A stretch of DNA of 34,931 nucleotides from Minisyncoccota bacterium (GTDB lineage: Bacteria > Patescibacteriota > Minisyncoccia > Phycocordibacterales > UBA2135), in contig JBBDJW010000004.1 in NCBI GenBank assembly GCA_040879685.1, positions 1 through 34,931 on the forward strand. The letters run 5' to 3'. Every line of letters starts with the position of its first letter. Positions within the stretch are counted from its first letter, which is position 1. The notes under the pieces are model-generated. The model was not told where the DNA came from. It was given only the letters and a program-made list of their open reading frames with translations, and did not search any database. A program made the translations under genes and the position numbers. Shown piece by piece: positions 3,865-21,852 of this stretch.

Positions 3865-4593
3865 ATGAAGTTACAAATTATTACCAGCACTGCAAGCGGT
3901 GTTATTGGCATCGGTATGCTTTTTGCGCTTGCTTTTACGGTGCCAACGCACGTTCACGCACAAAGCTCGGGGTTGACTGATGACCAGATCAATTCAATTC
4001 TCAACCTCCTCACAAGCTTTGATGCCGGTCCTGATATCGTTGATAAAGTTGGGAATGTCCTGCGTGGTGAAGTAAACGAAGAGGGAAATAAGGACGAAAC
4101 GGAAGATGAACAAAAAGACGAAGAGGAAGAAGAATTTAATAATCGTAGCGGCAGAAGCAATTCCGGTCCGGGTGCTGGGTTTCTCCCCGAACAAGCAAGT
4201 GATCGCGCGAAAGAGGTGATGCAATGCCTCCAAGTTGGCCGAACGCTTGGTGTCGGTAGTGTTGGTCAGGATGTGCAGAACATACAGAAATTCTTGAAGC
4301 AGAAGGGACACTTTGATTATACGGAAACAACAGGATACTTCGGTCCTATTACCCAAAAAGCAGTACAAGATTTCCAAGAGACGCAAGGGATTATTGATCG
4401 CGGTTCACCAGAAACTACTGGCTTTGGTCTTGTGGGTCCCCGTACGCGTGGAGCACTCCAACAAGCTACCTGCTTAAGTGGAAACGAGGTTGGCCCGGGG
4501 AATGATGAAGAGGAAGAGAGCGAGGACGAACAAGAAGAGGAAGAGGAAGATGATGATGACGACGACACTGCAACATCCACTGACGGATCGTAA
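3865..4593 (+). CDS. Secreted protein with peptidoglycan-binding (PG_binding_1-like) domain and acidic low-complexity tracts
   Basis: Signal peptide ending VHA|Q; LGVGSVGQDVQNIQKFL...TGYFGPITQKAVQDFQ...GLVGPRTR; D/E runs. Confidence 0.85.
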   Translation: MKLQIITSTASGVIGIGMLFALAFTVPTHVHAQSSGLTDDQINSILNLLTSFDAGPDIVDKVGNVLRGEVNEEGNKDETEDEQKDEEEEEFNNRSGRSNSGPGAGFLPEQASDRAKEVMQCLQVGRTLGVGSVGQDVQNIQKFLKQKGHFDYTETTGYFGPITQKAVQDFQETQGIIDRGSPETTGFGLVGPRTRGALQQATCLSGNEVGPGNDEEEESEDEQEEEEEDDDDDDTATSTDGS

Positions 4594-4613
4594 TACCATT
4601 TCACGAAACGATT

Positions 4614-10035: not shown

Positions 10036-10794
10036 ATGGCTGAATTTAAAACATCATTTATACCAAAACAGAAAACTCCTCTTAAGGATGGGCAGAAGAA
10101 GCACCGGCGGGGGGGCTTAGGTTTTTTAGGTTTCTTGGCGCTTATTATTTTTCTTCTTTCCCTTGTCGGTACGGGGGCTTTGTATCTTTATAAAATTGTT
10201 CTTGAAGGGAATATTGAGAAAATGTCTGCTTCTATTGCGCGCGTAGAGGAGGCGATTGATCCAGAACTTATTGAACGGCTACGTGATGTTGACGCACGAA
10301 TTGAAACAGCAAAACTTCTTCTTGCAAACCGTACCATCGCTTCACCCATTTTCCGCCTTTTGGAGGATGATACCTTGCAAAGTATCGGTTACAGCCAAAT
10401 GGAGTTTTTAATTGATAATGGAGGTGAAACAGAACTTCGTCTGCAAGGGGAGGCAAAAGATTATTCATCCCTTGCCTTGCAGTCTGACATTTTCGGAGAG
10501 ACAAAAAGTTTAGAAAGCCCTATTTTTGAAAGCCTTCGCTTAGATGAAAGAGGAAATGTTTCTTTTAGTTTTAAAACACCACTTGCGCGCTCTCTCCTTC
10601 TTTATGAGAACAATCTTAATGCCATTCCTCGTTTTGTTACTGAGGAGAATTTCTCTCCAACATCCTCGGATGATCTTGAGAAAAGTACTGTGGGAGAGAA
10701 GGTGGACTCATCTCCCACCAAAGAGAGCGCAGAAGACGACCTTACTACTATTGATGAGGAGCTTGACGGCTTTTTAGAAGGACTTGGTATTTAA
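10036..10794 (+). CDS. pilN: PilN-like alignment subcomplex protein
   Basis: SFIPK near N-terminus, single TM, coiled coil, L.GEA.....LA; lies between pilM and pilO. Confidence 0.65.
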   Translation: MAEFKTSFIPKQKTPLKDGQKKHRRGGLGFLGFLALIIFLLSLVGTGALYLYKIVLEGNIEKMSASIARVEEAIDPELIERLRDVDARIETAKLLLANRTIASPIFRLLEDDTLQSIGYSQMEFLIDNGGETELRLQGEAKDYSSLALQSDIFGETKSLESPIFESLRLDERGNVSFSFKTPLARSLLLYENNLNAIPRFVTEENFSPTSSDDLEKSTVGEKVDSSPTKESAEDDLTTIDEELDGFLEGLGI

Positions 10795-10797
10795 CGT

Positions 10798-11337
10798 ATG
10801 AACCAGTATATTATTCCAGTTGTCATACTTGCAGCAACCGTCGGAGTGTTCTTGGGCTTTACAGATCCCTTGTATCAAGAAATAAAGCAGATACAAAATC
10901 AATCAACACAACTCCGTGATGCATTGGAAAACACAAAGACAATCCAAGAGGTACGAGATCGTCTCCTTGCTCGATTTAATGACATTGAGAAAAGTGACTT
11001 GGATCGCCTTGAGCGGATGTTGCCAGGCAAGATTGACAATGTTCGCCTTATTCTTGAGATAGATGAGGTAGCGTCACGCCACGGTATGCTTGTGAAAGAT
11101 ATTGGTGTGCTAAAACAAAATGCGGATGAGGATTCCATTGGTCCTGATGTGAAGCCCTATGGAAGTTTGGATCTCGCGTTTACTATTACCGGGTCGTATG
11201 ATTCATTCCGCGCTTTTTTGAGTGAACTTGAACAGAGTCTTCGTGTTATTGATATTCGTGCAATTTTATTCATTGCAAATACATCAGAGACGATCCATGA
11301 GTATAGTATTACCGTACGAGCCTATTGGCTTAGGTAA
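10798..11337 (+). CDS. pilO: Type IV pilus assembly protein PilO
   Basis: TM + coiled coil; LERMLP; GSYDSFRAFLSELEQSLRVIDI. Confidence 0.88.
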   Translation: MNQYIIPVVILAATVGVFLGFTDPLYQEIKQIQNQSTQLRDALENTKTIQEVRDRLLARFNDIEKSDLDRLERMLPGKIDNVRLILEIDEVASRHGMLVKDIGVLKQNADEDSIGPDVKPYGSLDLAFTITGSYDSFRAFLSELEQSLRVIDIRAILFIANTSETIHEYSITVRAYWLR

Positions 11338-13593: not shown

Positions 13594-14658
13594 ATGGATT
13601 ACAAAAAGTCCTTAGATGATTTAATAGAAATCGTTATAAAAGAAGGAGGGAGCGATCTTCATCTTTCTGAAAATCGCACGCCGTCCATTCGTGTTTCAGG
13701 GGAACTTACTCCGTTGGTGAAGCATCAAACGCTCACTCGTGATGATCTCTCTGGTTTTTTGGGGATTCTTTTAAATGAACAAAAGTTGAAAGAATTTCAA
13801 AAAAACAAAGAAGTTGATTTCTCATATATGATACAGGGAGGTACGCGCTTCCGTGGAAGCTCTTACCTTCAACAAGGAGCCGTCTCTCTCGTACTGCGCC
13901 TTATTCCTTCTGAGATAAAAACACTTGAAGAGTTAAATCTTCCGGATGTGTTGTATGAATTCACAAGAAGAAAGCAAGGTTTTTTTCTAGTGGTTGGCCC
14001 GGTAGGGCATGGCAAATCAACGACACTTGCTTCAATAATAAGCTCTATTAATAAAGAACGAACTGAACATATTATCACTATTGAAGACCCTATTGAGTTT
14101 CTTCATAAACAAGAACGCTCGCTTGTTGATCAGCGCGAGGTCGGGGTTGATACGGACTCCTTTCAGAGTGGCTTGAAGGCGATGTTTCGGCAGGACGTTG
14201 ATGTTTTAATGATTGGCGAGATGCGTGACCCAGAGACAATCGCCGCCGCGGTAACGGCGGCAGAGACAGGGCACCTTGTATTTTCAACACTCCATACCAA
14301 TAATGCGGCACAAACAATAGATCGTATTGTTGATTCATTTCCCTCTGGACAACAAGACCAAATTCGTGCCCAGCTCTCCCAAGCGCTCTCAGGTATTTTT
14401 TCACAACGGCTCGTGAAGCGCACTTCAGGAGGGCTTATCCCGGCCTATGAGCTTATGAGAAATAATGCGGCGACAGCAAACCTTATTCGTGATGGAAGAA
14501 ATCACGAAATTAATTTGATAATTGAGACTGGCGCAGATGATGGTATGATTGATATGAATAGAACACTTGTTGATCTCTTGCGCAGAGGAGAAATCAGCGA
14601 AGAATCTGCTCGTGCATATTCACCTAACCCACGAGCATTAATGAGGCTTGTTGAATAA
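13594..14658 (+). CDS. pilT: Type IV pilus retraction ATPase PilT
   Basis: SDLHL, GPVGHGKSTT, EDPIEF, GEMRD, AAETGHLVFSTLHTN, ATANLIRD. Confidence 0.95.
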   Translation: MDYKKSLDDLIEIVIKEGGSDLHLSENRTPSIRVSGELTPLVKHQTLTRDDLSGFLGILLNEQKLKEFQKNKEVDFSYMIQGGTRFRGSSYLQQGAVSLVLRLIPSEIKTLEELNLPDVLYEFTRRKQGFFLVVGPVGHGKSTTLASIISSINKERTEHIITIEDPIEFLHKQERSLVDQREVGVDTDSFQSGLKAMFRQDVDVLMIGEMRDPETIAAAVTAAETGHLVFSTLHTNNAAQTIDRIVDSFPSGQQDQIRAQLSQALSGIFSQRLVKRTSGGLIPAYELMRNNAATANLIRDGRNHEINLIIETGADDGMIDMNRTLVDLLRRGEISEESARAYSPNPRALMRLVE

Positions 14659-14668
14659 CATTACCACC

Positions 14669-15880
14669 ATGCTTTTTAATTACAAAGTTGTCACTAAAGA
14701 AGGAGATCGGCAAGAAGGCACGATTGACACTATAAACAAGGATACTGCAATTTCATCTCTTCAAGGGAGAGGGTTTACAGTTCTTTCTGTTTCTTCCTCT
14801 GACGATGAGAAGGGAAGTATTTTCAATATGGATATAGAAATCTTCTCTGGTGTTCCTCGTCGTGACATTGTAATTATGTCGCGCCAGATAGCAACGCTCT
14901 CGGGGGCACAGGTCTCGGCGCTTCGTATCTTTAGGATGCTTGCTGCACAGGCGGAGAACAAAAGACTCCGTCGGGCGCTTACAGAGATTTCAGATGACGT
15001 TCAGGGAGGCTCGTCTATTTCTGCAGCCCTTGATAAGCATCCAAAGATTTTTTCCGAGTTTTATGTCAACATGGTTCGTTCTGGTGAAGAAACAGGAAAG
15101 TTGAGTGAAGTTTTTGAAGCGCTTGCTGATTATCTTGACCGTTCCTACGAACTTACTAATAAAATACGAAATGCTCTAATCTACCCAGCATTTGTTATTG
15201 CAACTTTTATTGTGGTGATGGCTCTCATGCTTACGCTGGTCTTTCCAAATCTTACCCAAATTCTTATTGAATCAGGGCAAGAAATACCTATCTACACCGC
15301 AATCATTATTGGCCTGTCAGACTTTCTTATTGACTACGGTATTTTCCTTGTCATTCTCATCGCAGTTGGTATTGGGTGGGCGGTGTATTATGGAAGGACT
15401 CCCTCAGGACGAAAGCTTTTCTCTAGGGTTGCAATGGAGGTTCCTATCCTTGGAGGGTTGTTGCAAAAGCTCTATCTCTCACGAATTGCCGATAATATGA
15501 ATACGCTTCTCTCAAGCGGGATTAATCTTGTCCGTGTCCTTGAGATAACAGGCACTATTGTCGGGAGCGCAGTATATGAGGATATTCTGAACGAGTCAAT
15601 GGAGCAGGTGAAGGGCGGTGCGACACTCTCTGATGTCTTATCGGAATATGATGAAATTCCTGTGGTGATGGTGCAAATTATGAAGGTGGGGGAGGAATCG
15701 GGAGAGCTGGGGAGTATTTTAAAAACACTCGCGACTTTCTATAAGCGAGAGGTTGATAATGCCGTGGATACCTTAATTGGTCTTATTGAGCCTATGCTTA
15801 TCGTGGCACTCGGTCTTGGTGTAGGAATTGTTTTGACTTCTGTTCTTGTCCCAATATATAATGTTTCAACGGGTATCTAG
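14669..15880 (+). CDS. pilC: Type IV pilus platform protein PilC (GspF family)
   Basis: SGEETGKL, ALIYPAF, VGEESGEL, LIEP; two GspF domains. Confidence 0.95.
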   Translation: MLFNYKVVTKEGDRQEGTIDTINKDTAISSLQGRGFTVLSVSSSDDEKGSIFNMDIEIFSGVPRRDIVIMSRQIATLSGAQVSALRIFRMLAAQAENKRLRRALTEISDDVQGGSSISAALDKHPKIFSEFYVNMVRSGEETGKLSEVFEALADYLDRSYELTNKIRNALIYPAFVIATFIVVMALMLTLVFPNLTQILIESGQEIPIYTAIIIGLSDFLIDYGIFLVILIAVGIGWAVYYGRTPSGRKLFSRVAMEVPILGGLLQKLYLSRIADNMNTLLSSGINLVRVLEITGTIVGSAVYEDILNESMEQVKGGATLSDVLSEYDEIPVVMVQIMKVGEESGELGSILKTLATFYKREVDNAVDTLIGLIEPMLIVALGLGVGIVLTSVLVPIYNVSTGI

Positions 15881-16015
15881 GAAAAAAATGTTATCCACAT
15901 GCGCCTTTTCCTTTAAAAAACCCCATGCTATACTTTTATTGTGTCTAGGTGGGTACTCTCTTAAAAGAGAAATGAGTTGATAAACTCTCGCCAGGCCTTT
16001 CTCAAAATTTTTTAT

Positions 16016-16462
16016 ATGAAAATACAAACACAAAAAGGTTTTACTTTAATTGAACTCTTGGTCGTTATCGCGATTATCGGCATCCTTTCATCTGTTGTTC
16101 TTGCGTCTTTAAATACTGCCCGCGAAAAGGCCCGCGACGCGCGAAGAATTGCCGATATTAAACAAATTCAAGTTGCTCTAGAATTTTATTTTGACGAAAA
16201 TAATACTTACCCATTAGCCATTATCGACCTCTCACCAAGTTACATTCCCGTTGCCCCTGTTGACCCGCTTGATACTCCGTTGACGGTGTATCCTTATCAA
16301 CAAATCTCAAGTACGGATTATCATCTCGGTGCAAACTTAGAAGATTCAAACAATAGCGTTTTAGATTCTGACAGGGATTTTGATGGTACAGTTATTGATG
16401 GACTTGATACTGACGGTTGTGCTGATGAGCCGGGACGATTCTGTTATGATGTAAGACCATAA
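16016..16462 (+). CDS. pilA: Major type IV pilin
   Basis: QKG|FTLIELLVVIAIIGILSSVVLASL..AR.KARDARR.AD; C-terminal Cys pair; own upstream -10 (TATACT) and downstream terminator. Confidence 0.9.
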   Translation: MKIQTQKGFTLIELLVVIAIIGILSSVVLASLNTAREKARDARRIADIKQIQVALEFYFDENNTYPLAIIDLSPSYIPVAPVDPLDTPLTVYPYQQISSTDYHLGANLEDSNNSVLDSDRDFDGTVIDGLDTDGCADEPGRFCYDVRP

Positions 16463-16530: not shown

Positions 16531-17343
16531 ATGGAGTTTCTTTTGTTATTTTTTATATTTCTCTTCGGAGCGATTATTGGCAGTTTTTTAAATGTGATTG
16601 CAACACGTTATGCTACGGGCATTTCTTTTCGTGGGCGCTCATTTTGCCGCTTATGTGGACACACTCTCGCGTGGTATGATCTCATTCCCTTTCTCTCTTT
16701 TGTATTCCTGAGGCGTAAGTGTCGGTATTGTAGCTGTAAAATTTCATGGCAGTATCCTCTTATGGAGCTTCTTGGGGGCGCGCTCTTTGCTGTACTTTTT
16801 CTCAAATTCTCACCACAACTGCTAGAAAGTCCATTTGCAGCAGCAGAGTTTATTTATTTTTTGGTTCTTTTTTCTTTTCTTCTTATTATTGGAGTCTATG
16901 ATTTTCACAATCACATTATTCCAAATCGCCTTGTGTATCTTTTTACCGGCCTTGCTCTTCTTGTTCCTCTTGGAGCAACGAGCCTCCCCCCCTCACTCCT
17001 CTGGCTTATCGCAGGACCTCTTTTAGCAACTCCTTTTGCACTTTTATGGCTTATCTCAGGTGGTCGGTGGATCGGGTTGGGTGATTCAAAGCTCGTCTGG
17101 GGGATAGGGTGGATGCTCGGGCTCTCGTCAGGGGTTGCGGCAATTCTCATTGCGTTTTGGGTTGGTGCGCTTATGGGCACAGCACTCCTTGTTGCACCGA
17201 GGATAAGTGTATTGTTGGGCTCTGGGAAACGATATACAATGAAAAGTGAGCTCTCATTCGCTCCGCTTCTTATTTTGGGGGTTTTCATTGTCTATTACTG
17301 GAACATTAGCTTTTTTCATATTCAGCTTTTTTTGACCCTCTAA
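16531..17343 (+). CDS. pilD: Prepilin peptidase
   Basis: IGSFLNV, RSFC..C...L.WYDLIP, C.YC, YP..E, D......IP, GLGDSKL, FAP. Confidence 0.95.
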   Translation: MEFLLLFFIFLFGAIIGSFLNVIATRYATGISFRGRSFCRLCGHTLAWYDLIPFLSFVFLRRKCRYCSCKISWQYPLMELLGGALFAVLFLKFSPQLLESPFAAAEFIYFLVLFSFLLIIGVYDFHNHIIPNRLVYLFTGLALLVPLGATSLPPSLLWLIAGPLLATPFALLWLISGGRWIGLGDSKLVWGIGWMLGLSSGVAAILIAFWVGALMGTALLVAPRISVLLGSGKRYTMKSELSFAPLLILGVFIVYYWNISFFHIQLFLTL

Positions 17344-17346
17344 GCT

Positions 17347-18066
17347 ATGCTCGCTAACATTCAAGCAAAAAATAATAACACAAAAAAAGGATTCACCTCC
17401 ACACCTTTCCTCACTTTATTGCGTGGTATAGGAAAACCACGAGAGAGTGTTGCTGTGTATGCACACAACAAACACCTCGGTATGAAAGGTGCAATGAGAC
17501 ACGAAGTGAGAAAAGGTAGTCGGGGGTTTACCGTCATTGAGCTTTTTGTAACTGCTGGTATTTTTGTTTTAATAAGCGGTCTCCTGCTCGCTAACTATGG
17601 AAATTTTGCCGGCTCAACAGTTATTAACAATCTCGCTCATGAGGTTGCGCTTTCTATTCGTCAAGCACAAGTTTTTGGTATTGGTGTGCAAGAATTTGGA
17701 GTTGGCTCGGGACTGTTCCTAAGCCATGGAATTTATTATTCCTCAAACGACCCGACCTTACTGCGTCTTTTCGCAGATGTCGATAAAGATGGTAAGTATG
17801 AAGAAGGAGAACTTGCTGAGCTTTTTACGCTTCGCAAAGGCAATGAAATACAGAGAGTTTGTGGCTACGAAACAACATCGAAAAATGCCCCCTGCGTAGA
17901 GCTTTCTGAGCTCAATGTCACCTTTACGCGCCCAAATCCTGAGGCGATTATTACCGGTACACCAAACGCGCAGTACGCTTACGCTCGCATTACTCTAGTC
18001 TCTCCTGGTGGATTAACGCGCGATATTTTGGTATGGGCAAATGGACAAGTTTCTATTTTGCAATAA
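17347..18066 (+). CDS. Minor type IV pilin with extended leader (duplicated GFT)
   Basis: KKGFT...(45 aa)...RG|FTVIELFV plus hydrophobic helix; C-terminal NGQV. Confidence 0.88.
   Translation: MLANIQAKNNNTKKGFTSTPFLTLLRGIGKPRESVAVYAHNKHLGMKGAMRHEVRKGSRGFTVIELFVTAGIFVLISGLLLANYGNFAGSTVINNLAHEVALSIRQAQVFGIGVQEFGVGSGLFLSHGIYYSSNDPTLLRLFADVDKDGKYEEGELAELFTLRKGNEIQRVCGYETTSKNAPCVELSELNVTFTRPNPEAIITGTPNAQYAYARITLVSPGGLTRDILVWANGQVSILQ
17389..17531 (+). mobile_element. 135-bp in-frame palindromic insert in pilin leader
   Basis: GGATTCAC (17389) and GGGTTTAC (17524) direct copies; terminal stem ACCTTTCCTCACTT / AAGTGAGAAAAGGT; internal hairpins. Confidence 0.7.
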
Positions 18067-18108
18067 TAAGCACTTTCTCCTGCGGAGTCTAGAATAATAA
18101 AAATTATC

Positions 18109-18702
18109 ATGTTGGAAAATAGTACACAACAAAAAATATCACACACCACAAACCTTGCGCCGCAAAGCAAGAAATGGTGTCGGGGGTTTACTTTAGTTGA
18201 GCTTATTGTTTCACTGGGGCTTTTTACCGCCGTGGCGCTTATTTCAATCGGAGCGCTTTTAAGTGTTGTTTCTGCCAACAAAAAAGTTCAGTCACTTCGC
18301 GTCGTCATGGATAATTTAAACTTTTCCGTTGAAAGTATGGCGCGCAGTATGCGTGTGGGAAGTTCCTATCAGTGTGGAGGCATTAATGCAATCCCCAATG
18401 ATTGCGGAGAGTTAGGAAGTGATATTGTTTCCTTCAAAGATATAAACGGAAGCGTTGTTGTATATCGTCTGCACGACAGCTCAATTCAACGCTCAACAGA
18501 TGGCGGACTCTCCTATCTTGATATGACAAGCCCTGAAATCACCATTGAAAAGTTACGATTTTTTGTTAGGGGGGCTCTTAAAGGAGATCAACGTCAGCCA
18601 CGAGTTCTCTTTATTACTGAGGGAGTCGCGGGGGTTAAAGATTTAGAGCAGGCTGAGTTTAACCTCCAGACAACCATTTCACAACGACCACTGGACACAT
18701 AA
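18109..18702 (+). CDS. Minor type IV pilin (PilW/PulJ-like)
   Basis: RG|FTLVELIVSLGLF; MARSMR; C-terminal LQTTISQR. Confidence 0.88.
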   Translation: MLENSTQQKISHTTNLAPQSKKWCRGFTLVELIVSLGLFTAVALISIGALLSVVSANKKVQSLRVVMDNLNFSVESMARSMRVGSSYQCGGINAIPNDCGELGSDIVSFKDINGSVVVYRLHDSSIQRSTDGGLSYLDMTSPEITIEKLRFFVRGALKGDQRQPRVLFITEGVAGVKDLEQAEFNLQTTISQRPLDT

Positions 18703-18730
18703 TTTTTCTATGATGAGAAAAAGAAAAACA

Positions 18731-19309
18731 ATGAAAAATAATAAAGAGTTCACCTCCACACCTTTCCTCACGAGGTTGCCTCTGGCAACGCACAAGGTGC
18801 GTCGAGATGAAAGGTGTCGGGGGTTCACGCTTATAGAGACACTCGTTGGTATCGCGATTCTCTTGCTTGCCGTAACTGGAACATTAACCACCGTTGCTAC
18901 AAACCTTTCTTTTTCAAGTTCTGTGAGAGAAGAGGTAACAGCTTTTTTTCTTGCGAGTGAAGCAATGGAAGTAATTCGTAACACACGAGATAATAATTCG
19001 TTAGAGGGAAATCCATGGCTTCAAGGAATTCAGGGTAATTGTGGCGGTTCATCGGCGTGTATCGTTGATGCCACAAAAATTGGAGACCCAACAACATCAT
19101 GTGGTACAGAGTGTCCCAATTTGCAACTTAACAGTGCAGGAGTCTATCAATATTCCCAAGGAGCCGAGACCCCCTTTAGAAGAGAGGTGCGAGTAAATGT
19201 TATTCATCCCGCCAAGGAGGCGATGGTTGAGGTAAGTGTTTTTTGGAAAAGACGGGGTATTGAGAAAAGTTTTTCCATAACAGAGAATATCCTTAATTGG
19301 CAAAATTAG
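18731..19309 (+). CDS. Minor type IV pilin (PilV-like) with leader insert
   Basis: KEFTSTPFLT...RG|FTLIETLVGIAIL; A..LA.E.ME..RN.RD. The start could also be 18710. Confidence 0.88.
   Translation: MKNNKEFTSTPFLTRLPLATHKVRRDERCRGFTLIETLVGIAILLLAVTGTLTTVATNLSFSSSVREEVTAFFLASEAMEVIRNTRDNNSLEGNPWLQGIQGNCGGSSACIVDATKIGDPTTSCGTECPNLQLNSAGVYQYSQGAETPFRREVRVNVIHPAKEAMVEVSVFWKRRGIEKSFSITENILNWQN
18746..18828 (+). mobile_element. 75-bp in-frame palindromic insert in pilin leader
   Basis: GAGTTCAC (18746) and GGGTTCAC (18821) direct copies; 23 bp identical to 17392-17414; internal hairpins. Confidence 0.7.
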
Positions 19310-19310
19310 T

Positions 19311-21852
<2,542 letters not shown>

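What the first reader, a model, noticed from the sequence alone, without database searches (positions are those of the whole stretch)
17389..18828. Site-specific palindromic inserts at the prepilin G|FT cleavage site in three minor pilin genes
Seen: two pilin leaders contain GGNTTYAC-like direct repeats 135 bp (17389/17524) and 75 bp (18746/18821) apart, both multiples of 3. They share an identical 23-bp left end TTCACCTCCACACCTTTCCTCAC and the right end AAAGGT(A)GTCGGGGGTTYAC, which is an imperfect reverse complement of the left end. Their interiors are different and full of hairpins. A third, eroded copy (about 18138-18191) keeps GGTGTCGGGGGTTTAC and an ACACCA/TGGTGT stem. The major pilin and the PilX-like gene (GYV) lack it. 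Established: PilD removes everything before the Phe, so in-frame additions upstream of the last GFT are discarded. Inference: a non-autonomous element that targets conserved prepilin cleavage-site codons as a safe haven. Alternatively, a structured mRNA or recombination module controlling minor pilin expression or shuffling.
Basis: partly seen in the sequence, partly recalled or inferred. Interest (0 to 1): 0.85.

Follow-up and report, generated by a model that had tools for sequence, protein, structure and literature searches.

The report
Mobile hairpin inserts in pilin leaders
Three neighbouring minor pilin genes of a tiny-genome (CPR-type) bacterium each carry, exactly at the codons for the leader-peptide cleavage site, a copy of a small hairpin-shaped mobile DNA element that is also found scattered in related genomes, sometimes carrying its own small nuclease gene.

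Summary
The 23-nt left end occurs exactly twice in the 531-kb genome, and the right end occurs in all three minor pilin leaders. The inserts are copies of a MITE-like family with inverted ends CCCCCACACCTTTC...GAAAGGTGTGGGGG and a 4-bp target duplication (consensus g|TT(T/G)A|c). A context-blind search found the family in 32 of 401 genomes of the order, with about 24 copies in one genome. The 71-nt pilin C insert aligns end to end with the 70-nt subfamily, whose three-helix fold shows compensatory changes. Versions of about 313 nt with the same ends, but different duplications, carry only an 84-aa GIY-YIG (UPF0213-type) nuclease gene. Most orthologous pilins in relatives have short leaders without the insert. 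The element starts with CC and ends with GGG, and it duplicates TTYA. Both junctions therefore read Gly-Phe-Thr, which explains the doubled GFT and why the insert is harmless if PilD removes the leader. The same family sits at the prepilin G|FT site in 13 genes of 9 CPR genomes, and the reading frame is always open. The family is not pilin-specific: most copies are intergenic and some lie in frame in housekeeping genes, as Rickettsia palindromic elements do. That the nuclease mobilises the element is inferred, not shown.

The parts
16531..17343 (+). Prepilin peptidase (PilD) gene, directly upstream of the minor pilins
   Evidence: Pfam A24_N_bact 9.6e-28 and Peptidase_A24 2.3e-9
16037..16045 (+). 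Gly-Phe-Thr codons (GGT TTT ACT) of the major pilin (ORF 15977-16462). The target motif is present but there is no insert
   Evidence: N_methyl 2.8e-9
17347..18066 (+). Minor pilin A ORF. With the insert the leader is 59 aa. Removing the insert and one duplicate gives MLANIQAKNNNTKKG|FTVIE
   Evidence: Orthologs at 40-51% identity in 10 of 10 family relatives
17392..17395 (+). Left copy of the 4-bp target duplication of insert A (TTCA)
17396..17526 (+). Insert A, 131 nt. Ends are CCTCCACACCTTTCCTCAC ... GTGAGAAAAGGTAGTCGGGGG, with a closing stem and inner hairpins. The interior is unlike that of other long copies examined
   Evidence: (I6)
17527..17530 (+). Right copy of the target duplication of insert A (TTTA). 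Together with the element's GGG and the following CC it rebuilds Gly-Phe-Thr
18109..18702 (+). Minor pilin B ORF (leader MLENSTQQKISHTTNLAPQSKKWCRG|FTLVE)
   Evidence: N_methyl 8.8e-4
18140..18186 (+). Probable eroded third copy, about 47 nt. The right end AAATGGTGTCGGGGG is kept, with an ACACCA/TGGTGT stem and an inner hairpin CTTGC...GCAAG. The left terminus and duplication are degenerate
   Evidence: (2 mismatches)
18710..19309 (+). Minor pilin C ORF. Removing the insert and one duplicate gives MMRKRKTMKNNKE|FTLIE, so the left Gly codon has drifted to Glu
   Evidence: N_methyl 2e-6; orthologs
18749..18752 (+). Left copy of the target duplication of insert C (TTCA)
18753..18823 (+). Insert C, 71 nt. 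It aligns along its whole length with the 70-nt subfamily: a TIR stem plus hairpins GTTGCC..GGCAAC and GCAC..GTGC
   Evidence: The family model scores it 75.8 bits, E 2e-12, though it was one of the training rows
18824..18827 (+). Right copy of the target duplication of insert C (TTCA)
19311..19793 (+). PilX-like gene (G|YV) without an insert

Best explanation
The three inserts are copies of a non-autonomous, hairpin-shaped mobile DNA element (a MITE-like family). The pilin B copy is eroded.

Anatomy of the family:
- 14-nt inverted ends CCCCCACACCTTTC / GAAAGGTGTGGGGG.
- The whole element folds back on itself.
- It inserts with a 4-bp target duplication at g|TT(T/G/C)A|c.

Why the prepilin site tolerates it:
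- The prepilin cleavage-site codons GGN-TTY-ACN contain this target.
- The element begins with CC and ends with GGG.
- The left junction therefore reads ...G-F-T(ACC)... and the right junction rebuilds GGG-TTY-ACN, which is Gly(-1)-Phe(+1)-Thr.
- A complete PilD site is restored in front of an untouched mature pilin.
- The extra 25-45 codons are translated as part of the leader and then cut off. This step is inferred from the established action of prepilin peptidase.

Consequences:
- Insertions here survive in a very compact genome, and they recur in many CPR lineages.
- Mobilisation is most likely by the 84-aa GIY-YIG (UPF0213/SLX1-like) nuclease. It is the only gene in the roughly 313-nt versions that share the same ends. 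This is inferred and the chemistry is unknown.
- The window's own genome holds no such long version. Its six copies (three in pilin leaders, three intergenic) are probably old and immobile.
For: What is shown, by topic.

Family and distribution:
- The end motif hits 32 of 401 genomes of the order. The backwards-read control hits 3.
- One genome (G070) has 48 end matches against 1 for the control, about 24 copies.
- Nearly all hits come as left/right pairs 29-318 nt long.

Target duplication:
- 30 of 43 context-blind pairs have an exact 4-nt flanking repeat. Re-paired controls give a mean of 7.5 and a maximum of 16 in 1000.
- The repeats are TTTA (17), TTGA (7) and CTTG (4).
- G precedes the repeat in 14 of 30 and C follows it in 21 of 30.

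Homology of the window copies:
- Insert C aligns over its full length with copies from 3 other genomes and with 3 further copies in its own genome.
- The fold is 93.4% paired against 34-57% when the partners are slid. 10 of 31 pairs show changes on both sides.

Long versions:
- G070:C25 has an intact 84-aa GIY-YIG ORF exactly between the ends, with duplication TTGA.
- G004:C2 has the same arrangement with a frameshift and duplication TAAA.
- G005:C3 has duplication TTTA.
- Of the 20 closest nuclease loci in which my motif filter found the ORF (of 30 fetched), about 14 have inverted ends of 16 nt or more spanning 279-328 nt.
- 7 of the 10 genomes with a nuclease at least 63% identical have the end motif, against 32 of 401 overall (read by eye).
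- The nuclease matches PF01541 at 2.8e-19 and PDB UPF0213 entries 1ywl and 1zg2.

Empty sites in orthologs:
- Orthologous pilins A, B and C in most of 25 relatives have leaders of 6-25 aa without the element. Examples are G004, G024, G022, G017 and G021.

Recurrence at G|FT:
- 13 genes in 9 genomes carry the family at this site.
- Window A, B and C.
- G001 pilin C, with 3 tandem copies.
- G060 (2 genes), G235 and G146. These came from the context-blind search.
- A Saccharibacteria MAG, with 3 tandem 141-nt copies.
- Two genes of one Parcubacteria MAG, a Portnoybacteria MAG and another Parcubacteria MAG.
- All have a frame open from an upstream ATG. In G001 this holds except across a run of N.
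- Removing the insert restores ordinary leaders, for example MSKHQKG|FTLFE and MLKRIFSKQKG|FTLIE.

Enrichment:
- About 4 of roughly 57 context-blind copies lie at prepilin sites.
- In the window's genome such sites are 4 of 2580 TTYAC sites.
Against: - No movement was seen. Contigs of two runs show only the filled form and no joints. Contigs drop rare variants, so this is weak evidence.
- The empty sites are in orthologs only 41-51% identical, not in close strains.
- Insert A's interior matches no other copy examined. Insert B is eroded.
- Two pilin copies in one Parcubacteria MAG add 140 nt, which is not a multiple of 3. There the upstream ATG lies in the shifted frame, so a simple 'neutral in-frame insertion' does not describe them.
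- The GIY-YIG link is associative. G045 has 18 end matches but no small GIY-YIG gene.
- Only 17 of 32 genomes with the end motif have a nuclease homolog, against 124 of 369 without it (read by eye).
- The window's 4 small GIY-YIG genes lack these ends.
- No GIY-YIG nuclease is an established transposase, to my knowledge.
- Leaders of 59 aa, and up to 153 aa elsewhere, are far longer than any I know to be processed by PilD. Cleavage at the second GFT is untested.
- Unrelated palindromes at the same spot in G008 could also point to a function for a hairpin at this position.
Confidence: 0.8

Rival explanations
1. There was one insertion followed by copying between paralogs. The element entered one minor pilin leader once, and then spread to the neighbouring pilin genes by gene conversion or recombination between their similar leader and FT(L/V)IE flanks, not by three separate transpositions.
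For: - The three window copies share derived features not seen in the canonical family: CCTCC instead of CCCCC, and an extra C in GGTGTCGGGGG.
- Copies A and C share 23 identical nucleotides although the genes are otherwise diverged.
- In other genomes the leaders of paralogous minor pilins are homogenised even without hairpins. Examples are G013 (KTTHYSLPTNHSSG in all three), G006 and G005.
Against: - The interiors of A (131 nt), B (about 47 nt) and C (71 nt) differ. Conversion would be expected to copy them too.
- Each copy has its own TTYA duplication.
- The same CCTCC/GTCGGGG variant occurs in a pilin of a different family, G146.
- This rival concerns only how the copies multiplied within the operon. 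It does not question what the element is.
Confidence: 0.25
2. The hairpins are kept because they do something for the minor pilins. They could be an mRNA structure or a long basic leader that tunes translation, stability or membrane insertion of low-abundance pilins. The mobile element would have been co-opted.
For: - Strong folds lie at the same place in three genes.
- Unrelated GC-rich palindromes sit immediately before TTYAC in pilins A and B of G008, in opposite orientations.
- In this genome the major pilin has the target but no insert.
- The base that encodes residue -2 departs from the family consensus in 9 of 13 pilin copies: Trp becomes Arg, Ser or Gly. This suggests that the peptide is seen by selection.
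Against: - Most orthologs work without any insert.
- In other genomes major-type pilins carry it too (L016, L062, L063).
- The same family lies in intergenic DNA and in unrelated genes.
- No expression data exist.
- Selection on residue -2 fits mere tolerance (keeping PilD cleavage) as well as it fits function.
Confidence: 0.12
3. The inserts are removed at the RNA level, as an intron-like or ribozyme-like element, so their coding content would be irrelevant.
For: The fold is compact and conserved, with compensatory changes. GIY-YIG nucleases are typical passengers of group I introns, and NCBIfam gives a weak hit to a 'group I intron endonuclease' model, 26.8 bits against a cut-off of 56.
Against: - No Rfam family matches, even at E up to 1.
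- 31-136 nt is far too small for a group I or group II intron.
- All 13 pilin-borne copies keep an open frame joined to an upstream ATG. That would be unnecessary if the insert were spliced out.
- The flanking 4-bp duplications are a DNA-insertion signature.
Confidence: 0.03
4. The similarity is ordinary paralogy or chance. On this view the long leaders are simply inherited protein sequence.
For: The three genes are tandem paralogs.
Against: - No shuffle reproduces the ends.
- The same ends occur outside pilins, on both strands, in other reading frames, and around a nuclease gene.
- Orthologs lack the extension.
Confidence: 0.01

Closest known systems
Rickettsia palindromic elements (RPEs). 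Ogata et al. 2000 is cited in the MITE review PMC10969869; I read passages of the review only
   Same: Small palindromic repeats that sit in frame inside protein-coding genes and are translated as extra peptide. Here copies lie in pilin leaders, a class I tRNA synthetase, a TatD gene and N-terminal signal regions. Both occur in reduced genomes.
   Different: There is no sequence relation that I could test, because no RPE sequence was at hand. Here there are clear 14-nt inverted ends, a 4-bp duplication and a candidate autonomous partner. From recall, no enzyme is known for RPEs. Here one recurrent site is a cleaved leader, so the extra peptide is probably discarded rather than kept in the protein.
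Bacterial MITEs such as Correia elements of Neisseria, ERIC, RUP and Nezha (named in PMC10969869 or recalled)
   Same: Short, multi-copy, with inverted ends, a target duplication and no transposase gene. Subfamilies share only their ends with a longer version.
   Different: Known MITEs are tied to classical IS transposases (DDE or HUH). Here the only protein between the same ends is an 84-aa GIY-YIG nuclease. The whole element, not just the ends, is a conserved fold-back.
REP/REPIN elements with RAYT (TnpA-REP), and IS200/IS605 hairpin-dependent transposition (abstracts seen in the listing)
   Same: Palindromic elements whose hairpin, rather than a long inverted repeat, seems to be what is conserved. 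A single small enzyme gene is associated with them.
   Different: Those systems use an HUH Y1 transposase and make no target duplication. Here 30 of 43 copies have a 4-bp duplication, and the enzyme is GIY-YIG.
GIY-YIG nucleases: the UPF0213/YhbQ-like proteins (PDB 1ywl, 1zg2), SLX1 and homing endonucleases of the I-TevI type
   Same: PF01541 at 2.8e-19. The best solved relatives are the UPF0213 proteins. There is a weak match to SLX1, a structure-specific nuclease.
   Different: Homing endonucleases spread by cutting an empty allele and copying across it. They do not have inverted ends, duplications or MITE derivatives. I found no function in mobility reported for UPF0213 proteins.
Type IV prepilins and their class III leader removed by PilD
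   Same: G|FT(L/V)IE followed by a hydrophobic helix, with PilD, PilT, PilC and a major pilin in one operon.
   Different: The leaders are 25-59 aa here and up to 153 aa in a Saccharibacteria MAG. Orthologs without the insert have 6-25 aa.

Membership tests
MITE (miniature inverted-repeat transposable element) | Terminal inverted repeats | tested here: met
   CCCCCACACCTTTC / GAAAGGTGTGGGGG pairs in nearly all loci. The window copies are imperfect variants.
MITE (miniature inverted-repeat transposable element) | Target-site duplication | tested here: met
   30 of 43 context-blind pairs have an exact 4-nt repeat, against a re-paired mean of 7.5. Window: TTCA/TTCA in copy C and TTCA/TTTA in copy A.
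MITE (miniature inverted-repeat transposable element) | Small, non-coding, multi-copy and dispersed | tested here: met
   Length 29-148 nt. About 24 copies in G070. 32 of 401 genomes. 6 copies in the window's own genome.
MITE (miniature inverted-repeat transposable element) | A longer autonomous relative with the same ends | tested here: met
   Units of about 313 nt with the same ends and a GIY-YIG ORF in G070, G004 and G005. That this ORF is the mobilising enzyme is not shown.
MITE (miniature inverted-repeat transposable element) | Evidence of movement (filled and empty sites) | tested here: inconclusive
   Distant orthologs have empty sites. No empty allele was seen in contigs of 2 runs.
RPE-like in-frame intragenic palindromic element | Inserted in frame in protein-coding genes with the frame kept open | tested here: met
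   13 of 13 pilin genes, plus a tRNA synthetase, TatD and signal-peptide regions.
RPE-like in-frame intragenic palindromic element | Sequence relation to the Rickettsia families | not tested
   No RPE sequence was available from a tool. This is treated as an analogy only.
Type IV prepilin (class III signal peptide) | G|F(T/S)xxE motif plus a hydrophobic N-terminal helix, with a prepilin peptidase present | tested here: met
   N_methyl hits for pilins B and C and for the major pilin. Pilin A has GFTVIELFV but no Pfam hit. PilD is adjacent.
Type IV prepilin (class III signal peptide) | Cleavage at the second GFT by PilD | not testable with these tools
   Needs protein chemistry.
GIY-YIG nuclease (PF01541, UPF0213 type) | Domain with GIY/YIG, Arg and Glu motifs | tested here: met
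   PF01541 at 2.8e-19. PDB 1ywl at 3.6e-6. The motifs ..YMYIL....LYIGST.., RRR and ..YYEAF.. are visible in the ORF.
GIY-YIG nuclease (PF01541, UPF0213 type) | Nuclease acts on the element's ends or target | not testable with these tools
   Inference from co-location only.
IS200/IS605 or REP-RAYT hairpin elements | No target duplication; HUH Y1 transposase | tested here: not met
   A duplication is present. The enzyme between the ends is GIY-YIG.
Group I intron with homing endonuclease | Intron core fold; removal from RNA | tested here: not met
   No Rfam match at E up to 1. Size is 31-136 nt. Open frames are kept.

The most novel reading that the evidence does not exclude
The roughly 300-bp units are a previously undescribed kind of minimal autonomous DNA transposon.
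- Each consists of inverted ends and a single 84-aa GIY-YIG (UPF0213/SLX1-like) nuclease gene, and is flanked by a 4-bp duplication.
- The small nuclease would recognise the element's fold-back ends and a g|TTTA|c target.
- The hairpin MITEs are its non-autonomous offspring.
- These units and MITEs are widespread in CPR bacteria. Nuclease homologs occur in 141 of 401 genomes of this order.
- They have colonised the prepilin cleavage-site codons repeatedly, because insertion there rebuilds the PilD site.
- This would also give the large UPF0213 family its first biological role.
Probability: 0.4. Interest if true: 0.85.

Novelty: new variant of a known kind. Interest (0 to 1): 0.72.

Why it matters
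**A clean case of why a mobile element survives inside a gene.** The element's own end letters (CC...GGG) together with its 4-bp duplication rebuild the signal-peptidase site. The extra peptide is then thrown away with the leader.

**Practical use for annotation.** It explains odd, very long 'leaders' and doubled GFT motifs in CPR pilin annotations. It also warns that start-codon and signal-peptide predictions there can be misled.

**A possible new transposon type.** The family links hairpin MITEs to a tiny GIY-YIG nuclease gene bounded by the same ends. If that nuclease moves the element, it would be a new and very small type of transposon, and the first role for the UPF0213 proteins.

**Genome evolution in reduced genomes.** In-frame copies in a tRNA synthetase and in TatD show that Rickettsia-style 'selfish DNA in coding genes' also operates in CPR genomes.

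Tried and rejected
**Searches and tests that gave nothing**
- Rfam (4227 families, E up to 1) on four loci that include both window inserts and two outside copies returned only chance-level hits.
- Literature. I found no report of GIY-YIG genes bounded by inverted ends with duplications in bacteria, and none of repeats in prepilin leaders. Searches gave listings and abstracts only. Passages of PMC10969869 and PMC11602168 were read. Supplements were not available, and the large MITE census in PMC11602168 may list such families there.
- Sequencing runs. No RNA holder was listed. Contigs of X1 and X2 showed no joints and no empty alleles, and X3 laid nothing.
- A search for a conventional transposase next to six solo ends (L008, L022, L023, L027, L028, L034) found none. 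This covered only 3 kb around each end.
- Insert A's interior was compared with 15 other long copies. No convincing similarity was found; the best was L030, about 3.7 sd above shuffles.
- The covariance model R1 found no copy in the window's genome beyond the four already in its training set.
- The window's four small GIY-YIG genes, and most of those in G147 and G004, showed no flanking inverted repeat with exact 8-nt seeds within 200 nt.

**Rows dropped and filters used**
- In one search, 66, loci L059-L065 (fetched with a pilin-dependent pattern) were excluded from the 'context-blind' counts. A few very short pairs in that list (for example L010 at 2262, L064, L065 at 1044) may be chance pairs. 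They were left in.
- In one search, 20 of 30 fetched nuclease loci passed my motif filter and were examined. The other 10 were not.

- Structure prediction, complex prediction, the protein atlas and the large protein databases. They would not have changed the reading.


Full report
**1. Setting**

The window is contig C4 of a 530,787-bp, 19-contig genome, 96% complete and 42.6% G+C. That is the size typical of CPR/Patescibacteria. The region is a type IV pilus operon:
- PilT-like ATPase, 13594-14658.
- PilC, 14648-15880.
- Major pilin, 15977-16462.
- Prepilin peptidase PilD, 16531-17343.
- Minor pilin A, 17347-18066.
- Minor pilin B, 18109-18702.
- Minor pilin C, 18710-19309.
- A PilX-like gene, 19311-19793.
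- DNA ligase follows.

**2.

- The 23-nt left end is found exactly at 17392 and 18749. There is nothing else with up to 3 mismatches, and no match in 100 shuffles.
- A 21-nt core of it occurs only at these two places in the whole genome.
- The right end matches at 17512, 18172 and 18809.
- The ends are complementary, and the inserts fold well beyond shuffles, with z -4.2 and -3.9.
- The third copy, in pilin B, keeps the right end and a 6-bp stem. It has lost its left terminus, and its fold is not significant.
- Contigs from two public sediment-metagenome runs reproduce the insert-bearing sequence. The inserts are therefore not an assembly accident of one data set.

**3. What the inserts are**

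*A dispersed family.* A search of 60 relatives with the left end found the same ends in two other genomes, outside pilin genes. An order-wide search with the canonical end GAAAGGTGTGGGGGTTTAC (up to 2 mismatches) hit 32 of 401 genomes. The backwards-read control hit 3. G070 has 48 end matches against 1 for the control, about 24 copies.

*Paired ends and size classes.* Hits almost always come as a left end and a right end 29-318 nt apart. There are size classes of about 32, 70-74, 86, 130-141 and 313 nt.

*Target duplication.* Among 43 pairs fetched without reference to pilins, 30 are flanked by an exact 4-nt direct repeat. Re-paired flanks give a mean of 7.5 and at most 16 in 1000 trials. The repeats are TTTA (17), TTGA (7), CTTG (4), TTAT and CTCA. 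G precedes the repeat in 14 of 30 and C follows it in 21 of 30. The target is therefore about g|TT(T/G)A|c.

*A conserved fold.* The 70-nt class has a closing stem that continues the inverted ends, plus two small hairpins (GTTGCC-loop-GGCAAC and GCGC-loop-GCGC). It occurs in either orientation relative to its flanks.
- The window's insert C aligns with this class over its whole length.
- On 15 copies from 4 genomes, 93.4% of cells pair, against 34-57% when partners are slid.
- 10 of 31 pairs show changes on both sides.
- The copies are related and the structure was read from them, so this supports a conserved fold-back but is not a formal proof.

*Other copies in the window's genome.* It has three further copies of this class on contigs C11, C13 and C8, all between genes. 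The genome therefore holds six copies, and half of them are in pilin leaders.

**4. Long versions**

- In G070:C25 an intact 84-aa ORF lies exactly between CCCCCACACCTTTCGTTTTATT and AATAAAACAAAAGGTGTGGGGG, flanked by TTGA/TTGA.
- G004:C2 has the same unit, with the ORF about 80% identical but frameshifted, flanked by TAAA.
- G005:C3 has one flanked by TTTA.
- The protein is a GIY-YIG domain (PF01541, 2.8e-19). Its nearest solved relatives are the UPF0213 proteins 1ywl and 1zg2, with a weak match to SLX1.
- Homologs at E up to 1e-15 occur in 141 of 401 genomes of the order, often in several copies.
- Of the 20 closest loci that I could examine (of 30 fetched), about 14 are bounded by inverted repeats of 16 nt or more spanning 279-328 nt. 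Some have the same ends and some have related ones, such as CCCGCACAC... and CCCCCGAAC....
- 7 of the 10 genomes whose nuclease is at least 63% identical to the G070 one also have the end motif, against 32 of 401 overall (read by eye).
- The association is weaker at a distance: 17 of 32 against 124 of 369.
- G045 has 18 end matches and no small GIY-YIG gene.
- The window's four small GIY-YIG genes, two of them broken, lack these ends.

I therefore treat 'the nuclease moves the element' as the best inference, not a result.

**5. Why the prepilin site**

The cleavage-site codons GGN-TTY-ACN contain the target. Insertion duplicates TTYA. The element begins with CC and ends with GGG.
- The left junction reads GGN-TTY-A|CC, which is Gly-Phe-Thr.
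- The right junction reads GGG|TTY-A-CN, which is again Gly-Phe-Thr.
- The mature pilin is untouched and a complete PilD site precedes it.
- Removing each insert with one duplicate gives ordinary leaders: MLANIQAKNNNTKKG|FTVIE for pilin A and MMRKRKTMKNNKE|FTLIE for pilin C. In C the now-unused left Gly codon has drifted.

That PilD removes everything before Phe+1 is established knowledge of prepilin peptidases. That it does so on leaders of 59 aa is an inference.

**6. Orthologs**

Pilins A and C have orthologs (41-51% identity within the family) in nearly all of 25 relatives. Most have leaders of 6-25 aa without the element. Examples:
- G004: MSRNKKKQKTRRG|FT, MRLPATHHSFLARQRG|FT and MDPHSKTRTPKPAERG|FT.
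- G024: MKIVKNNTSG|FT.
- G022: MKTHTTKG|FT.

The inserts are therefore derived. One relative of the same family, G001, has three tandem copies of a close variant (CCCCCACACCACAACG...TTTGGTGTCGGGG, duplication TTTA) in its pilin C ortholog. That stretch is interrupted by a run of N.

**7. Recurrence**

A scan of one genome per species (185,579 species) for the right end followed by F-T-x-x-E codons gave 7 loci. Five are prepilin genes with the element at G|FT:
- A Saccharibacteria MAG with leader MNKDTQYLTKKG followed by three 141-nt copies, all open.
- Two pilin genes of one Parcubacteria MAG.
- A Portnoybacteria MAG: MSKHQKG FTPTPYF...KRKVWG|FTLFE.
- Another Parcubacteria MAG: MLKRIFSKQKG FTPTSN...SKVWG|FTLIE.

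The other two loci are nested copies in non-pilin DNA.

More telling, the context-blind loci already include four such genes:
- Two consecutive minor pilins in G060.
- A major-type pilin in G235.
- A pilin in G146, with the same CCTCC/GGTGTCGGGG variant and GFTSTPF peptide as the window.

Counting the window, that is 13 genes in 9 genomes. All have a frame open from an upstream ATG, except that G001 cannot be read across its run of N.

*Added lengths.* The added length is a multiple of 3 in the window (135 and 75), in G146 (138), in G235 (36), in the Saccharibacteria MAG (3 x 141), and in the Portnoybacteria (99) and Parcubacteria (102) MAGs. The two genes of the other Parcubacteria MAG add 140 nt. 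There the upstream ATG is in the shifted frame, and one of them also has an in-element ATG that would give MRRKVWG|FT. This is a loose end for the simple model.

*Enrichment.* About 4 of roughly 57 context-blind copies sit at prepilin sites. In the window's genome these sites are 4 of 2580 TTYAC sites. The enrichment is real, but it can come from survival as well as from preference.

*Residue -2.* The base encoding residue -2 departs from the family consensus in 9 of the 13 pilin copies. Trp becomes Arg, Ser or Gly. This hints that the junction peptide is under selection for cleavage.

**8. Not pilin-specific**

- None of the roughly 24 copies in G070 is in a pilin.
- In-frame copies lie in a class I tRNA synthetase (12 extra residues), in a TatD gene (26 residues), and just before the hydrophobic stretch of several N-terminal signal regions.
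- This is the behaviour known from Rickettsia palindromic elements (passages of PMC10969869).
- Other palindromes use the same pilin site. A CCCCGTTAGAAATT...AAATTTCTAACGGGG family with duplication TTTA is in two more Portnoybacteria pilins. An unrelated GC-rich palindrome lies in opposite orientations in pilins A and B of G008.
- In several genomes the leaders of paralogous minor pilins are alike without any hairpin (G013, G006, G005). Copying between paralogous leaders also happens, and it may have helped to spread the window's copies.

**9. Verdict**

The inserts are copies of a non-autonomous mobile element that persist at the prepilin cleavage-site codons, because the leader is disposable and the junction rebuilds the site. 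'Site-specific' is too strong.

What is new:
- I found no description of this family, of MITEs in prepilin leaders, or of GIY-YIG genes bounded by inverted ends and duplications. This rests on open-access full text and preprints only, without supplements.

What remains untested:
- Actual movement.
- The nuclease's role.
- PilD cleavage of the long leaders.
- Absence of RNA-level removal.

Noticed in passing
L118 (G008:C3), upstream of positions 1501 and 2125: Pilins A and B of relative G008 carry a GC-rich palindrome (GCCTGCCCGCCTCGCAAGCGTCAGCGTTGCGGGCGGGC) immediately before TTYAC. The two copies are in opposite orientations and have no obvious duplication. This is a different element family at the same site.
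   Followed up: partly
L132 (G013), L119 (G006), L121 (G005): leaders of minor pilins A, B and C: Paralogous minor pilin leaders within one genome share near-identical non-hairpin sequence, for example KTTHYSLPTNHSSG in all three genes of G013, built from a 7-nt CTACTCA repeat. The sequences differ between genomes. This suggests concerted evolution of the leaders.
   Followed up: partly
L062 (Portnoybacteria MAG), about 1250-1440 and 4420-4610: Two further pilin genes have a doubled GFT made by another fold-back family (CCCCGTTAGAAATT...AAATTTCTAACGGGG, duplication TTTA). Three pilins in this MAG therefore carry inserts at G|FT.
   Followed up: partly
L081:121-3012 (G070:C18), L006:841-1860 (G261:C8), L094, L068, L084 (G070): In-frame copies of the family lie inside a class I tRNA synthetase (12 aa, next to a Cys-rich motif), inside a TatD DNase (26 aa), and just before the hydrophobic core of N-terminal signal regions of three secreted or membrane proteins.
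   Followed up: partly
L080 (G070:C14, about 10430-10805): A head-to-tail array of at least four copies, each joined by the same TCAA. The pilin arrays in L059 and G001 look the same. This suggests repeated insertion into the target rebuilt at an element's edge.
   Followed up: no
G000:C7:399-599, C13:1684-1857, C8:6008-6208, C19:7856-8056: The window's genome has four small GIY-YIG genes. One has an internal stop and one is broken by four stops. None is flanked by the family's ends.
   Followed up: partly
window 17521, 18179-18188, 18673-18674: Contigs of run X2 end at or next to the right ends of inserts A and B and at the pilin B/C junction. This is as expected if the assembler breaks at repeated sequence.
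   Followed up: no
L041 (G147:C43): A GIY-YIG gene bounded by a perfect 24-nt inverted repeat, CCCCCCACCACTTTTATGTATCAT, that includes its start codon. This is a related but distinct end type.
   Followed up: no
L061 and L064 (two MAGs labelled Deltaproteobacteria): Identical nested copies of the family occur in contigs of MAGs labelled Deltaproteobacteria. This could be mis-binning of CPR contigs, or the family may reach beyond CPR.
   Followed up: no
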